Below, one piece after another: positions 1 through 6,000 of a stretch of 46,614 bases of DNA. A program made the position numbers. The stretch lies in the IMG/VR virus record IMGVR_UViG_2713896798_000017; one strand, written 5' to 3'. Position 1 is the first letter of the stretch; each line of letters begins with the position of its first letter. The DNA comes from a virus. Its lineage: Duplodnaviria; Heunggongvirae; Uroviricota; Caudoviricetes.

Positions 1-3000
1 CTACTTGCTAACCACGAGCGGCAAATCCAGTGTTGGTGTGATTTTTGTTTTACGATCGTAAATCAACACCTGATTTTCTGTTTTATGCCCGCTGAAAATT
101 TGTTTGTCGCGACTGCTGCCTTCGTAATCTGAGATCCCCTTGGCTTTTATGTCGTGAAAATTGCACCCGAACGGAACGCCAACTTTTTGCTCGGCTGCGC
201 GTTTAGCCTGATTCCACCAGTTATTCAGCGTTTTAGCTATGACTTTCCCGCCTTTGGTTGTATTGATCACATATTCGCATGTACAGGAAGATACATTTCG
301 GGCTAACTGGATCGCTGTACGTAATCGCGGTGACCATTCCTTGATTTGTTTGGTGCCGGTTTTGTTTTGCTCAATGTAGATCCCTTTATCCATAATATCC
401 TGCCATTTCAACTCAAGCACATCACCGAGTCTTGCCGCACAGAGATAGGAAATCTCCATTGCAATGCGTAACTGTGGAATTGCTTCCGCATATATCGCCG
501 CATACTGTTCATCGGTGATGTAAACAGTGCGGGCTTTAAGAGAGAATTTTCTGACTCCTTTGCATGGGTTATTCTTCACATACCCACGCTCATATCCCCA
601 CCCGTATACTCGACTCAGGCTTGCCAGTTCATGATTTGCCTGGGTCTTGCTCTCAAGCCCTCGTTTATCCATGAAAATTCTTACCTGCTCAGTTTTGACA
701 TTATCAGCAAGCACTTTTCCGAATACCATCAGCAACGCCTTCTGATGTTGTCGATAATCTTTTTGGGTTCGGGGGGCCAGTTCTGTAAATGCAGGGGAGT
801 CCATAAACATGTGCCACAATTTAGCTACGGTCATTATGTTGTGGAGTTTTGCTTTTTCCAGTTCATAATTTTGCCAGACTTTAGCTACGCTGGTTTTCCG
901 CACTCTTCCTAGCCCTATACTTCTTGTACTTCCTTCGGGTTTCCACACGTAACTGTAACCATTCGATCTAACCCGCGGTGGCAGTACATTATCTTTTTTA
1001 TTTTTTCTTGGTCTTCCCATTGTTCAGCGCCTCAAAATCGGGTTCAGCAGAAACCAGTTCAGATGTTTTTGGCATCGTTGTCAGACCGTGTGGAATATCC
1101 CTGCGGAGAACTATGGGTTCGTTTTTAGGGCCGATTACAAATGGGATGCCGTGCAGTCTTAACTGGTGTTGCTGTTTTGTGTATCGCTCGTATTTCGTGA
1201 TCTCTTTAATCTCTGCTGGAGATAGAGTTAATTCGTACATGTGGTCACGTGCCTTTACAGCATGACCGCCGCCACTATAGCTGGTGGGCGGCGATATGGG
1301 TTGAACATCAAAAATCAGCCTGACTCGGGAGCAGTTTTTGCCAGATGGCTGAAACGTATTTCGCCTGGTAACGTGCATCGTTCAGAGCGTTATGGCGTTC
1401 ACCTTCGAATGGAATAGTCGTTCTTGCGTCGAAATCCATCACCAGTCCCAGAGCAACCATCGTTCTTACATCGCGATCATTGGTGTAACGCCATGGGCAG
1501 GGGATCCCCTGCCGTTCATATGAACGGCGTAAAATCACGTTGTCGAAAGTTGCACCGTTACCCCAGACCTGAACAAAAAATTCACCGGAGTTTTCGTCGA
1601 TAAATTCCCGTAATTGCAGCAGTGCATCATCTAACGGGATTTCATCGGTAAGAATGGCGGATTGCGCTTCGCGTGACTGTTTCAGCCACCACTTAATGGT
1701 GTCCCGATCAATGACTCCGCCAGCAGTTTCCAGATCGATAGTTTTGCTGAATTCTGGCCCCATCTCTCCGGTTTGCGGATCGAAAAATATTGCACCTATT
1801 GAGATAATCGGGGCATCAGGATTTTTTCCCATTGTTTCAAGGTCAATCATCAGATGGTGCCACAACCTGCTGGTGGATGAGATTTCATGATGACCGTTCA
1901 CTTTAATTAAGGGATTTGCTGTTTCGCCAGTTTTATTATCGCTGGCGTGATACTGATCGCTGCCAGTGTTCTCCTTGTGCAGATGTTCAGTGCCTTCCAT
2001 TTCCTCCGGATCATTTTTCTGAGCTTCAGCCTGATTCTCTTCATCGAATGTTTCCAGGTAGGTTGCGTTCCCCATCACCGCACCACAGTCAGGACAGTTG
2101 CCGCCACCGGTCTGACCGCATGCGGTGCAAACTTTTTCCAGTTCCTGTTGCACTGCTGGTTCTGGTTGTTGTTCTTCTGGCCCGTTTTGTTGCGTATCCG
2201 GGCTGTTTTGTTCCGCTTCTGGCTCATTTTGTTTCACGTTGGGCTGATTCTGGTCCTCAGCGTCGCGACTCTGGATCCCTTTCACCCATTTCGGATCATT
2301 CGGGTCGCTAATCCCTTCAACAAATTCACCACGTGATGCAGCAAGCAATTTATCGGCGTCAGGCTGGCTGATATTGGCTGCCTGCATAATTTTGTTTACT
2401 TCGTCAGCGGTAACTTTTACCGGCTCTGATTGTTCGGAATCTTCAGCGGTATCCACATTTTGCGGTAAGCCCGTGTATGTGCCATTTTTTCGGGCAAAAT
2501 ATTCTTCTTTTGAGATTTCGGTACCGCCGGCAGCCAGCGCCTTGTCCAGACCAGAAAGTTTGTTTGCCCTGCCGTATTTTTCCCCGCCCTTATCGGTAAA
2601 GACGAAATAAAATGGTCCTTCACGCTCTACAGATGGTTCAGCTTCCACCAGGATTTCATTTTTTTGAGTATCGGATTCTGCCGTCTCCACTGGAGCAGTT
2701 TGTGCTGCTGACGGCTGGAGAGCATCAGTAGAGCTCTGGTCTGTTTCTTCATGTTCAAACACGCCCTTTGTCGTCAGGTATTCACTGATATATTTGTTCA
2801 GTGCAACGGGATCTTTGTGAATATCGATCGGACGTTCGCGAACAAGGCCAAAAATAGTCTGACGGTCATAGCCAAGTGCTTCGGGCTGTTTGCGCATTGA
2901 TGCTGAGATACGCTTCCAGTCTTCGCGATCCTTGTCGATAACCTCATTTGTCGCCCAGCGATGGATGGTACCGTCAATGTTTCCTGCATCCACATCACCG

Positions 3001-6000
3001 GGCCAGAGGGCGCAGGCCAGTTCATTGTCGAGTGTTTTCCATGTCTGTTTGTATTCGCGGCGAATGGCAACAGTGACAGCCCCGGTTTTTTCAGCAGCGT
3101 TTTCAGTGTTCTGTTGGTTGACTCTGGCGCGGGTGAGATCAACAACAGACGTGTATTTTCCGGTTTCCTTGCGTTCACCTTCGCGACGTTTTTTCCAGAT
3201 GCGCATCTCTGCCTGAATTTCAGGCCATTTAGCGCCAGGCTCACATTTATGCTTAACCCACCCGATGGCATGCAGTTTAAGTTCAGGATACATGGCGTTA
3301 ACTTCTGGCATTTTCATCAACGCTTCAACGATATGTCCGCCGAATGTTGCCATGTCTTCCTGTAGTAATTCCTGTGCGCTAATCACCATATCAACGGTGA
3401 TGTTTTCGCATGTGTCGAATTTAACCAGGACTGCGTTCTGTACTTCAGGGGACAGCTTGTCAAAATTGACGTTCATCGGATCGGATTCTGGTTCGACCGG
3501 TACAAAGGAAGCTGACTCCTCATCCCAGCGGTTTTCCTGCATATATTCGGTATCCCAGGAATCGAGGGCAGGGCGGGGTATGCCGGGTTTATCCTCGCAG
3601 ACAATAAATTTATAAGCGCAGTCCTGAGCTGCCGGGAATTGCTCCAGAAATTGCCAGTGAAATTTTGCGCGTGCGCGACGCTCATCACCGGCTTCAATGG
3701 CAGTGGCCACCGCAACAGCGCTATCTTCTTTTATGGCCTGTTCGTCAGGAATAGCAGCGCAAATAAAGATTTTACTCATTGTGTTTTAACCTCATTACAG
3801 ATTTAAGGGTGAACAAATCCCTGCCATTGCTGGCATATAAAAATGAAACCGGATATTAATTACGGTGCTGTTTTAAAGTCCTGCCGGTATTTCGTTATTA
3901 TTAGTGTGAGTAGTTTTATCTACCGGATAACAGTTACCGGGAATTTTTTGTTCTGCTGCTGCAGCCATGCATTCTTTCATTGAACCGTATAAGCCAGTCA
4001 CCAGCTCAAGAGATTCGCCGGAAACAAGATAAACTGTCAGAACGAGTGCAAATGTTGTATTCATTGTTTATATCCTTTTTGCAGCAGGTCCAGACGAGCC
4101 AGCATTGAAGGAATGCATACTTCATTTAACAGGTCCTGCTCGAGTTTTCTCTGCTTAATGGCGTCTTCAATAAATGTTTTGTCTCCAGTGATAACGCCAA
4201 TTTCGAAACGAAGTTCAGACGTGCTGGCATTACATGATAACTTTTCCATTATCGCGTCCTCAACAATGAATTTTGTGATGCGGTGCCTGGTGCCTCCAGG
4301 TGACGTTAACCAGTTAACAATTAACGCCGGATACAGAGCATTCTCGTTACTCAGCAAATGACCGCTTTACCGATTTAACTGTTCCGCGTGCGCTGAGCCG
4401 CATTCACCGCATCACAAAATTCACTTTTAAAAAAGGGCGGCAGAGCAGTCACGGAGTAAAACTGATACCGCCAAATGTCACCAGAATATTGATAACAGAG
4501 GGCGTTGCAGCGGGGTTGTCACTTAAGCGTATGGTCAACCTGACAACCCGGTGTCCTCAACGGGGAAAGAATAACCCCGCCATACTTACCGCCGCGCCAT
4601 TTCGCGGATTGCCACAACCGGAAGCGCACGGTCGAATTAAATTTAACGACGGCTCTAAGGGAGAAGGACTTCGCCGTGCACTTTCGTGTTATGCCCTGAC
4701 TTTTCAGGGATATATCCTTTCAGTAAACTGTCAGTGCCGGATTCTTATCTGTGTCCGGCGCACGACCACACGTAGCAGCGTGTTGGTCTCCATTTTTAAT
4801 TCAGCCCTTAATGGAGGATAAAATGCCAAACAAACCATGCCCTGCCTGTAACGCTCTTTCTGGCTTTTTAGAGAAGGGCGGTTATTACATTTTTAACTGT
4901 CCAGAACATGTTGAATTTCATATATCAAAACTTGACAGTATCATTACAAAGCCAAATCAGTATCAGTCTGATTTACTGAATAAAGAGTTAAACGCCGCCC
5001 GAGATTAAGGGCGTAGTGGCCCATTAAAAATATTGCAAAGACCAACTATTGTTGAACTGGATTAAACCAGTAATTCTCTATTGCTCTTATTGTTACCATC
5101 GGATGATTGCCGGGGGTTATTTTAAGTTCGGGAGGAAAAGGCTCTCCATCAGCAGCCATCATTGAGTATGTGAAATCCGCCGACGCAGTCCCTTTCATGA
5201 TAATTCCGAATTTTTCAAGTAATGAGAGCAGTTCCGGTAATCCTGTGTCATCTGAATAACTTTCCTCATAGAAAGAAGCGATTGCCGCAGGAGATGACAG
5301 TTCTCGCTCTGCAATTTTTTTGTAGTTTTCCAGAATTCTTTTTTTGAATACTTTTCCTCGACATGAAAACCCATCACCGAGGCAATCCGCTTTGCAGTTT
5401 CTTCAGTATTCTGGTTGTTTGTTACCGAAACAGAGTACAATCCGGTAAACGCATCGCGCACATTACGAGCCATATTATCAATGTATTTCTTCGTTGCAGA
5501 TTCTAATTCAACTTCGTTCAGACGTTGGTGAAGTGCATGTGCTGCAATTTCCTGGATTTCTTTTAGTAAATCTTTAAATTCCATCTTTAACTCCGTTAGT
5601 CGTTAGATTTTGCCGAACTGGAAAGCGCCTGTTTAAACTCACTGAAGCTGAGAGCTTCCTCGCCTTCGGCAAGGCCTTCGAAGTATTCTTCGTAAGCCTT
5701 TTCCATGATTGTGTCGAAATCCATATCACTCACCTGAGTTTCTTTCCAGCCAGCGACGGGCACCATTTTCGGTTTTAAACGTTTTGCTTTTGGTATACGT
5801 CATCGCGGTGAATGTACCGTCCTGGTTGGGAAACACGCCGTACACCAGAGATTCGTTGTTGCCAAGATCGATAGTATCCATGTTGACCTCATTTCCCCTT
5901 AACGCCGGGTAGCGGAACAAAAACCTGCTGCATAGTTATTAAAGTTGAACCCTGCCGTCATGTTCATACGCCTCGGGCTGGCTACTTACCCCCTGACCAC

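What the first reader, a model, noticed from the sequence alone, without database searches (positions are those of the whole stretch)
1308..3779. Large exonuclease with a DnaQ-like 3'-5' domain in place of lambda exo/bet
The 823-aa protein carries a DEDDh exonuclease domain only in its last 180 aa or so. The N-terminal 600 aa or so is acidic and low-complexity in places and contains a CxxC…CxxC zinc-ribbon-like motif. No Bet/RecT-like annealing gene is evident nearby, so the recombination module differs from the lambda Red and Rac RecET patterns.
Basis: partly seen in the sequence, partly recalled or inferred. Interest (0 to 1): 0.4.

Follow-up and report, generated by a model that had tools for sequence, protein, structure and literature searches.

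The report
RecE-like prophage protein, DexA-type exonuclease end
This is the intact form of the E. coli K-12 pseudogene ydfE: a very common, already catalogued but unstudied prophage protein that joins a RecE-like front part to a 3'-to-5' DNA exonuclease, in the slot where lambda keeps its recombination genes.

Summary
Window 1308-3779 (-) is an 823-aa ORF. Its last 180 aa or so are a DEDDh 3'-5' exonuclease of the Rv2179c/T4 DexA family (Pfam E 7e-66), with all five catalytic residues. It has a C4 zinc-ribbon motif (C551/C554/C562/C565). No annealing-protein gene was found in the prophage.

The interpretation needs correcting in three ways.
- **RecE relative:** aa 262-625 are homologous to aa 278-591 of Rac RecE, up to the point where RecE's own nuclease starts. 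The protein is a RecE relative with a swapped nuclease.
- **Folded, not low-complexity:** AlphaFold gives four confident folded domains in aa 1-432, with no solved structural relative.
- **Ordinary and catalogued:** the protein is 100% identical to RefSeq WP_000034468.1 ('exonuclease'). The gene covers at least 80% of its length in 3,534 of 5,426 complete E. coli genomes. It is PHROG 2082 and the intact form of the K-12 Qin pseudogene ydfE.

The added finding is that the same scaffold carries alternative ends in relatives: the RecE PD-(D/E)XK nuclease, this DEDDh nuclease, a Rad52-type annealing domain, or a short tail. All the loci I examined lie in the recombination slot next to xis-int.

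My best reading is a scaffold-tethered 3'-end-trimming DNA exonuclease of the phage recombination module. This function is inferred, not shown. Interest is low to moderate.

The parts
1308..3779 (-). 823-aa ORF: intact ydfE-type scaffold fused to a DEDDh exonuclease
   Evidence: ORF list. Full-length match to PHROG 2082 (1-823 of 823). 100% identical DNA in E. coli O103:H2 12009, protein WP_000034468.1 'exonuclease'.
3168..3779 (-). YdfE-type head, aa 1-204: an alpha/beta domain (aa 1-100) and a helical domain (aa 105-204)
   Evidence: AlphaFold2 pLDDT is about 90. PHROG 5943 matches aa 1-257. Pfam YdfE_N and YdfE_C are recorded for near-identical proteins. K-12 ydfE corresponds to aa 1-255.
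2760..3047 (-). Middle helical domain, aa 245-340, shared across the family and weakly with RecE
   Evidence: pLDDT is about 90. phmmer with aa 262-470 hits most family members whichever head and end they carry. BLASTP against RecE aa 278 onward.
2484..2618 (-). Small beta/alpha mini-domain, aa 388-432, with the motif GPFY..RANK..EI..EEY.ARK
   Evidence: 12 of the 28 invariant columns of the 84-sequence alignment lie here. pLDDT is about 78-88. The motif is absent from K-12 RecE (sequence read).
1905..2363 (-). Acidic RecE-like linker, aa 473-625, with the conserved motif RGEFVEGISDPNDPKW (aa 483-498)
   Evidence: BLASTP against RecE aa 450-591. NCBIfam exodeoxyribonuclease VIII model matches aa 453-625 only. 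The same motif is seen in many family members.
2085..2129 (-). C4 zinc-ribbon motif CTAC-x7-CPDC, aa 551-565
   Evidence: Cysteine positions. Identical spacing in RecE (CNAC..CPDC) and in several relatives. Metal binding was not tested.
1341..1859 (-). DEDDh 3'-5' exonuclease domain, aa 641-813 (Rv2179c/T4 DexA family)
   Evidence: Pfam PF16473 E 6.8e-66. phmmer hit to PDB 8kel, E 5.9e-7. Catalytic D646, E648, D746, H796, D801. Motifs kept in 122 of 129 scaffolded homologues.
998..1240 (-). Downstream neighbour: excisionase-like DUF4224 gene, followed by the integrase (1-1020)
   Evidence: PHROG 1266 excisionase. Pfam DUF4224. RefSeq annotation.
3873..4249 (-). Upstream neighbours on the same strand: ydfD-like DUF1482 (3873-4064) and dicB (4061-4249)
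   Evidence: RefSeq annotation. Pfam DUF1482. Same order as K-12 Qin dicB-ydfD-ydfE-intQ.

Best explanation
**What it is (shown).** The gene is the intact form of the Qin-prophage gene ydfE. It lies in the leftward early gene block of a lambdoid prophage. The protein has these parts:
- a two-domain YdfE-type head;
- a helical middle domain;
- a small conserved beta/alpha domain;
- a long acidic linker with a C4 zinc ribbon, shared with Rac RecE;
- a C-terminal DexA/Rv2179c-type DEDDh exonuclease with a complete active site.

The scaffold belongs to a modular family. In relatives the same front part carries the RecE 5'-3' PD-(D/E)XK nuclease, a Rad52-type annealing domain, this DEDDh nuclease, or a short tail. 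In every locus examined it lies in the recombination slot next to xis-int.

**How it most likely works (inferred).**
- After induction the protein is made with the other leftward early genes.
- The scaffold brings the enzyme to DNA ends, or to a partner also used by RecE and by the annealase fusions.
- The DEDDh domain removes nucleotides from 3' ends by two-metal-ion hydrolysis.
- It would therefore trim 3' tails or flaps of linear or broken phage DNA, with polarity opposite to RecE and lambda Exo.
- With no annealing protein of its own, it would depend on host functions, or on annealases of co-resident prophages, for any joining step.
For: Domain content and catalytic residues.

Homology of aa 262-625 to RecE aa 278-591, ending where the RecE nuclease begins.

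Modularity. A search of 1.84 billion representative proteins with aa 1-640 found 248 clusters. phmmer mapping of 55 long members gave 8 with the DEDDh end, 12 with the RecE nuclease, 17 with a third domain, 6 with a short tail and 12 with none of these. Both head types occur with each of the four ends.

The third domain is a Rad52/Rad22 annealase. Its profile finds stand-alone proteins at about E 1e-65 to 1e-85 that NCBI names Rad52/Rad22 family. Five of these pass the Pfam PF04098 cut-off.

Slot. The order is dicB-ydfD-gene-xis-int here, in phage Tritos and in the commonest E. coli variant. The scaffold-Rad52 fusions lie between a kilR or weakly Gam-like gene upstream and Sipho_Gp157, xis and int downstream in Kosakonia and Klebsiella prophages.

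Selection. Catalytic motifs are kept in 122 of 129 homologues. The gene covers at least 80% of its length in 3,534 of 5,426 complete E. coli genomes and is present in sequenced phage genomes.

Against: - No activity, substrate or phenotype has been measured for this protein or any scaffolded DEDDh relative, and I found no paper on it.
- A 3'-5' nuclease destroys the 3' tails that RecA and annealases use, so a pro-recombination role is not obvious.
- There is no annealing partner in the prophage.
- The family founder Rv2179c is described as an exoribonuclease, so the substrate could be RNA.
Confidence: 0.45

Rival explanations
1. It is a nuclease aimed at other DNA, not a recombination enzyme. 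It would either degrade host or competing DNA to nucleotides, as T4 DexA does, or defend the lysogen against modified-DNA phages, like the E. coli DexA homologue EcD ('HREX').
For: The catalytic domain is in the DexA family. PMC12153337 reports that a stand-alone E. coli DexA homologue (EcD) degrades 5hmC DNA and protects against T4. The closest stand-alone relatives of this domain are small phage and prophage exonucleases (54-59% identity).
Against: - The two residues that paper ties to 5hmC recognition are not kept. DexA W152 aligns with T766 and D169 with V780. D90, whose loss marks the defence form, is kept as D718. The alignment is at only 28% identity.
- The gene lies in the block transcribed away from the repressor gene, so by analogy with lambda it should be silent in a lysogen. 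Expression was not examined here.
- PADLOC gives only a generic DEDDh hit, E 1.6e-4.
- This reading does not explain why the scaffold is shared with RecE and with annealase fusions.
Confidence: 0.2
2. It is a 3'-5' exoribonuclease that acts on phage or host transcripts, for example those of the dicB-dicF operon it belongs to.
For: Pfam describes the family as '3'-5' exoribonuclease Rv2179c-like', and NCBI names many copies '3'-5' exoribonuclease'. DicF sRNA is encoded about 650 bp upstream on the same strand.
Against: The nearest characterised phage relative, DexA, is a DNA enzyme (PMC12153337). The scaffold is otherwise joined to DNA enzymes, the RecE nuclease and a Rad52 annealase. RecE-headed versions occur in prophages of other types.
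Confidence: 0.1
3. It is a decaying mosaic with no current function, left over from recombination between a recE-like gene and a small exonuclease gene.
For: Lambdoid prophages are mosaics. Truncated or deleted copies exist: K-12 ydfE is cut by IS2E, a Shigella locus is fragmented, and there is a 527-aa internal-deletion form, P0122.
Against: The full-length ORF is maintained at 77-100% identity in thousands of genomes and in sequenced phage genomes. Active-site motifs are kept in 122 of 129 copies. The same architecture also occurs with diverged sequences at 44-59% identity (P0123, P0137).
Confidence: 0.03

Closest known systems
RecE (exonuclease VIII) of the Rac prophage, E. coli K-12
   Same: aa 262-625 are homologous to RecE aa 278-591 (38% identity overall), with the last 150 aa or so much closer and including the CxxC..CxxC motif. 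Overall size is similar. Both occupy the same slot upstream of xis-int. Both have a long N-terminal part of unknown function.
   Different: The C-terminal nuclease is DEDDh (3'-5') instead of PD-(D/E)XK (5'-3'). The head is YdfE-type instead of Pfam Exonuc_VIII (PF06630). There is no recT next to it. The NCBIfam exodeoxyribonuclease VIII model scores 260 bits against a cut-off of 1269.
T4 DexA and stand-alone DexA/Rv2179c-like exonucleases (PF16473), including EcD of the 'HREX' defence
   Same: Same catalytic domain and the same five catalytic residues.
   Different: Identity to DexA is only 28%. The domain is fused to a 640-aa scaffold. DexA insertions are absent. W152 and D169 equivalents are T766 and V780. 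The closest stand-alone forms are prophage genes of about 190 aa at 54-59% identity.
K-12 Qin prophage pseudogene ydfE (b1577)
   Same: Same gene in the same place (dicB-ydfD-ydfE-int). aa 1-255 are 89% identical. It gives its name to Pfam YdfE_N and YdfE_C.
   Different: The K-12 copy is cut by IS2E after about 255 codons and so lacks the middle domain, the linker and the exonuclease.
Scaffold-Rad52 fusions of Enterobacter, Klebsiella, Kosakonia and Citrobacter prophages (about 780 aa; NCBI name 'exodeoxyribonuclease VIII')
   Same: Same YdfE head, middle domain and mini-domain (31-45% identity). Same slot in the prophage.
   Different: The C-terminus is a Rad52/Rad22-type annealing domain, not a nuclease. 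A Sipho_Gp157 gene follows it. There is no zinc-ribbon linker.
Lambda Red (Exo, Beta, Gam)
   Same: Same position in the leftward early block next to xis-int.
   Different: No sequence relationship. Opposite nuclease polarity. No annealase or Gam gene here.

Membership tests
DEDDh exonucleases of the Rv2179c/DexA family (Pfam PF16473) | Match to the family model above the curated cut-off, over the whole domain | tested here: met
   221.8 bits against a cut-off of 27; model positions 1-177 of 177; aa 641-813.
DEDDh exonucleases of the Rv2179c/DexA family (Pfam PF16473) | The five catalytic residues D, E, D, H, D in motifs I-III | tested here: met
   D646, E648, D746, H796 and D801 align with DexA D7, E9, D119, H186 and D191.
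DEDDh exonucleases of the Rv2179c/DexA family (Pfam PF16473) | The fold, and 3'-5' exonuclease activity | not testable with these tools
   The AlphaFold2 model of aa 440-823 was unusable (mean pLDDT 35.4 with a shallow alignment). Activity needs an enzyme assay.
RecE / exodeoxyribonuclease VIII (NCBIfam NF007259 equivalog) | Full-length match above the curated cut-off | tested here: not met
   260 bits against a cut-off of 1269; only aa 453-625 match.
RecE / exodeoxyribonuclease VIII (NCBIfam NF007259 equivalog) | C-terminal PD-(D/E)XK nuclease domain (Pfam DUF3799) | tested here: not met
   No Pfam hit. phmmer with RecE aa 596-866 does not hit the protein, though it hits 12 family members. 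No RecE structure appears in the PDB search.
RecE / exodeoxyribonuclease VIII (NCBIfam NF007259 equivalog) | N-terminal Exonuc_VIII domain (PF06630) | tested here: not met
   No hit at E up to 1. RecE aa 1-277 does not match. The head is YdfE-type.
RecE / exodeoxyribonuclease VIII (NCBIfam NF007259 equivalog) | Central linker with zinc-ribbon motif homologous to RecE aa 450-591 | tested here: met
   BLASTP E 4e-59.
RecE / exodeoxyribonuclease VIII (NCBIfam NF007259 equivalog) | Adjacent recT annealase gene | tested here: not met
   The next genes are xis and int. The same holds in Tritos and in the commonest E. coli variant.
YdfE family (Pfam PF27430 YdfE_N and PF27432 YdfE_C) | Match to both models | tested here: inconclusive
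   The local Pfam copy lacks these models. Precomputed hits are recorded for proteins 86-100% identical to this one. aa 1-255 are 89% identical to K-12-type ydfE.
HREX defence exonuclease (DexA-like enzyme specific for 5hmC DNA; PMC12153337) | Residues equivalent to DexA W152 and D169, proposed to recognise 5hmC | tested here: not met
   They align with T766 and V780. Across 129 scaffolded homologues the W152 position is Y in 72, T in 42, C in 9 and W in 2. The alignment is at 28% identity.
HREX defence exonuclease (DexA-like enzyme specific for 5hmC DNA; PMC12153337) | Loss of the tetramer-forming D90 | tested here: not met
   D718 is kept at that position.
HREX defence exonuclease (DexA-like enzyme specific for 5hmC DNA; PMC12153337) | Protection against T4 and selective cleavage of modified DNA | not testable with these tools
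   Needs plaque and nuclease assays.
Phage single-strand annealing proteins (Red-beta/RecT, Erf, Rad52/Sak, Sak4, Gp2.5) | An annealase domain in this protein or a neighbouring gene | tested here: not met

The most novel reading that the evidence does not exclude
The YdfE/RecE front part may be a portable targeting or assembly module. It would deliver interchangeable DNA-end effectors to one common site or partner: a 5'-3' PD-(D/E)XK nuclease, a 3'-5' DEDDh nuclease, or a Rad52-type annealase. Candidates for the contact surface are the short motifs conserved in its disordered linkers, such as RGE[FY]VxGISDPxDPKW, and the GPFY..RANK mini-domain. If so, identifying that partner would explain the long-unexplained N-terminal 600 aa of RecE. 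The DEDDh form would then be a recombination-slot function of opposite polarity that works without its own annealase. The modular pattern itself is shown here. The common-partner idea is inference.
Probability: 0.3. Interest if true: 0.55.

Novelty: already known. Interest (0 to 1): 0.3.

Why it matters
By itself the gene matters little. It is one of the commonest prophage genes in E. coli and is already annotated as an exonuclease.

Its value is as a handle on two small open questions.
- **The RecE front part.** What do the first 600 aa or so of RecE do? They are dispensable for nuclease activity, boost linear-linear recombineering, and are still called 'of unknown function' in a 2023 review (PMC11611040). 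The same scaffold is joined to two nucleases of opposite polarity and to an annealase, which suggests it supplies targeting or assembly rather than chemistry.
- **Prophages without an annealase.** How do the many lambdoid prophages that lack any annealase handle their DNA ends?

There is also a practical point. Scaffold-annealase fusions carry the name 'exodeoxyribonuclease VIII' in public annotation although they have no nuclease domain.

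Tried and rejected
- **RecE-type nuclease hidden in the protein:** rejected.
- **Hidden annealase in a neighbouring small ORF or in the N-terminal region:** rejected.
- **Structure of aa 440-823 (linker, zinc ribbon, exonuclease):** AlphaFold2 gave mean pLDDT 35.4 because only near-identical E. coli sequences could be supplied. I discarded the model and did not use it for fold search.
- **Fold searches with the good aa 1-470 model:** nothing usable.
  - Foldseek against PDB: no hit at E 0.001 or better.
  - BFVD: only small uncharacterised phage proteins of about 65 aa resembling the first domain.
  - The afdb50 library was unavailable.
- **PDB profile search with the third C-terminal domain:** nothing. 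Its Rad52 identity came from homologue names and Pfam instead.
- **GTDB scan with the single protein:** only 7 close loci, all Escherichia/Shigella-like or probable contaminants. One Shigella copy is fragmented.
- **Literature:**
  - No paper on this protein, on ydfE function, or citing PF16473.
  - My first search was swamped because 'RecE' matched 'receptor'.
  - One search failed on a term that was too short.
- **PADLOC defence models:** only a generic CRISPR-associated DEDDh hit.
- **HREX membership:** considered and not accepted because the proposed 5hmC-recognition residues are absent.

Full report
**The object.** Window 1308-3779 on the minus strand is an 823-aa ORF with an ATG start. 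The whole window is a lambdoid prophage. It is 98-100% identical to a prophage of E. coli O103:H2 strain 12009, apart from a 1.3-kb IS3-family insertion at 17351-18682. In that genome the ORF is WP_000034468.1, annotated 'exonuclease', and the DNA is 100% identical. The gene is very common. Megablast finds a match in 4,797 of 5,426 complete E. coli genomes, and in 3,534 of them one place covers at least 80% of the gene. The median is two places per genome and the maximum is ten. It matches PHROG 2082 ('exonuclease') end to end. It is also present in sequenced phage genomes such as Tritos, Evi, mEp460-type and PPompW-type phages.

**Checking the observation.** Pfam PF16473 (Rv2179c-like 3'-5' exonuclease) covers aa 641-813 and the whole model, with E 6.8e-66. 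The only solved relative found by sequence is a 227-aa 'exodeoxyribonuclease' (8kel, E 5.9e-7). Its length and name match T4 DexA, and PMC12153337 describes DexA crystal structures; I did not compare the two sequences directly. Aligned with T4 DexA, the catalytic residues D7, E9, D119, H186 and D191 correspond to D646, E648, D746, H796 and D801. The motif CTAC-x7-CPDC lies at C551, C554, C562 and C565. aa 1-640 have pI 4.65, with 118 acidic and 69 basic residues.

'Low-complexity' is only partly right. AlphaFold2 on aa 1-470 used 84 sequences from several enterobacterial genera and gave mean pLDDT 76.4. It shows four confident folded units:
- an alpha/beta domain at aa 1-100;
- a helical domain at aa 105-204;
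- a helical domain at aa 245-340;
- a small beta/alpha unit at aa 388-432.

These are separated by segments with pLDDT below 50, at 205-237, 344-385 and 438-457. The low pTM (0.31) means the relative placement of the domains is not predicted.

**What the N-terminal 640 aa are.** BLASTP against K-12 RecE aligns aa 262-625 with RecE aa 278-591 (38% identity, E 4e-59). From aa 473 onward the match is much closer and includes the zinc-ribbon motif. The alignment stops where the RecE nuclease domain begins: the review PMC11611040 places that domain at residues 564-866. The NCBIfam exodeoxyribonuclease VIII model matches only aa 453-625 and falls far below its cut-off. The first 255 aa are 89% identical to the product of the K-12 Qin pseudogene ydfE, which lies in the same order dicB-ydfD-ydfE-intQ and is cut by IS2E. 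Newer Pfam families YdfE_N and YdfE_C are recorded for near-identical proteins. The protein is therefore a relative of RecE that has a different head and a different nuclease.

**A modular family.**
- *The search.* Searching 1.84 billion representative proteins with aa 1-640 found only 248 clusters at E 0.001 or better.
- *C-terminal ends.* I mapped eight seed segments onto 55 long members with phmmer.
  - 8 members end in the DEDDh domain.
  - 12 end in the RecE PD-(D/E)XK nuclease, confirmed as Pfam DUF3799 in two of them.
  - 17 end in a third domain.
  - 6 end in a short tail of unknown nature.
  - 12 end in none of these. One of the 12 is a RecE-RecT fusion.
- *Heads.* There are two alternative heads, YdfE-type and the RecE-type PF06630. 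Both occur with each of the four ends, and one member has both heads.
- *The third domain.* It has no direct Pfam or PDB hit. A profile of it finds 1,881 proteins. These include stand-alone proteins of about 240 aa, at E around 1e-65 to 1e-85, that NCBI names 'Rad52/Rad22 family DNA repair protein'. Five of these pass the Pfam PF04098 cut-off, scoring 23-34 bits against 20.3. So the third domain is a Rad52-type annealase, established through homologues rather than directly.
- *Genomic position.* These fusions sit in the same slot.
  - In a Kosakonia prophage integrated between ttcA and dbpA, the Rac site, the order is kilR ... fusion - Sipho_Gp157 ... int.
  - In Klebsiella aerogenes the order is kilR - a weakly Gam-like gene - fusion - Sipho_Gp157 - xis - int.

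**Inference on function.** The scaffold is attached to two DNA-end nucleases of opposite polarity and to an annealase, and in every locus I examined it sits in the recombination slot. This ties the DEDDh version to DNA-end metabolism rather than to RNA or to unrelated functions. The active site is kept in 122 of 129 scaffolded homologues. I therefore read the protein as a scaffold-tethered 3'-5' DNA exonuclease of the early recombination block. It would trim 3' ends or flaps and would rely on host or co-resident annealing functions. These steps are inferred: timing of expression (from gene order and strand only), DNA as substrate, polarity, and the role of the scaffold. What the scaffold binds is unknown. 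[quoted passage not shown]

**Rivals.**
- *Defence or scavenging.* A 2025 paper (PMC12153337) reports that T4 DexA switches between host-DNA and 5hmC-DNA cleavage. It also reports that a stand-alone E. coli homologue (EcD) protects against T4.
  - In the window protein the two residues proposed for 5hmC recognition are not kept: W152 aligns with T766 and D169 with V780.
  - D90, whose loss marks the defence form, is retained as D718.
  - Across the family the W152 position is mostly Y or T.
  - PADLOC gives only a generic DEDDh hit.
  - I keep this reading as the main rival, at 0.2.
- *RNA exonuclease.* The family name suggests this role, but the company the scaffold keeps argues against it (0.1).
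- *Decaying remnant.* Conservation makes this unlikely (0.03).

**Comparison, novelty and score.** The protein fails the tests for RecE membership. It lacks the PD-(D/E)XK domain and the PF06630 head, has no recT neighbour, and falls below the equivalog cut-off. It shares RecE's linker and slot. It passes the sequence tests for the PF16473 DEDDh family. It fails the proposed HREX signature. As an object it is already known: an exact RefSeq protein, a PHROG, Pfam-covered, and the intact form of a named K-12 pseudogene. I found no experimental study of it. The modular-scaffold pattern and the probable misnaming of the annealase fusions are the only parts that may be new. I score interest at 0.3.

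Noticed in passing
window 17351-18682: A 1.3-kb IS3-family insertion (ORFs 17398-17808 with HTH_Tnp_1 and 17766-18671 with rve) is present in the window but absent from the otherwise 98-100% identical prophage of E. coli O103:H2 12009.
   Followed up: partly
window 4435-4486 (-), 13246-13420 (+), 19808-19998 (+), 19482-19728 (+): Rfam finds DicF sRNA just upstream of dicB, a sok antitoxin RNA beside hokD, the sRNA STnc100, and three tRNA genes (annotated as Ile, Arg, Arg in the matching genome).
   Followed up: no
window 6158-6636 (-): A RelB/RelE toxin-antitoxin pair sits between the cI-like repressor gene (6664-7065) and the leftward early genes. In K-12 Qin, relBE lies elsewhere in the prophage.
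   Followed up: no
L021 6079-6999 (E. coli K-12 NC_000913.3 1650078-1650998): The K-12 Qin pseudogene ydfE is the first 255 codons or so of this gene, cut by IS2E. K-12 therefore lacks the linker and the exonuclease domain.
   Followed up: yes
L015 8001-10412; L019 6001-8337: Proteins of about 780 aa from Kosakonia, Klebsiella, Enterobacter and Citrobacter that NCBI names 'exodeoxyribonuclease VIII' have the YdfE scaffold plus a Rad52/Rad22-type annealing domain and no detectable nuclease domain. The name looks like a misannotation carried over from the shared scaffold. A Sipho_Gp157 gene follows them, overlapping the stop codon.
   Followed up: partly
window 2334-2381 (aa 483-498), and family members: Short motifs are conserved inside otherwise disordered linkers across the family. 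RGE[FY][VI]xGISDPxDPKW is present here and in RecE. GxGxFS[IV][DE]GL and SNE[GV]EK[TPQ]E occur in many relatives but not here, where the zinc ribbon occupies that region. They look like docking motifs for an unknown partner.
   Followed up: no
L013 5998-6570 (phage vB_EcoM-720R4); L012 4998-5570 (Yersinia phage PY54 gene 51): The closest stand-alone relatives of the DEDDh domain (54-59% identity, about 190 aa) are small prophage genes. One of them is annotated 'exodeoxyribonuclease VIII' although it is not RecE-like, and it lies next to YfdP, YfdQ and an HD hydrolase.
   Followed up: no
window about 40400-40930 and about 44600-45240 (coordinates converted from the L003 annotation via the alignment): The tail region carries cargo genes annotated in the matching genome as sodC (Cu/Zn superoxide dismutase) and an Ail/Lom outer-membrane protein.
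   Followed up: no
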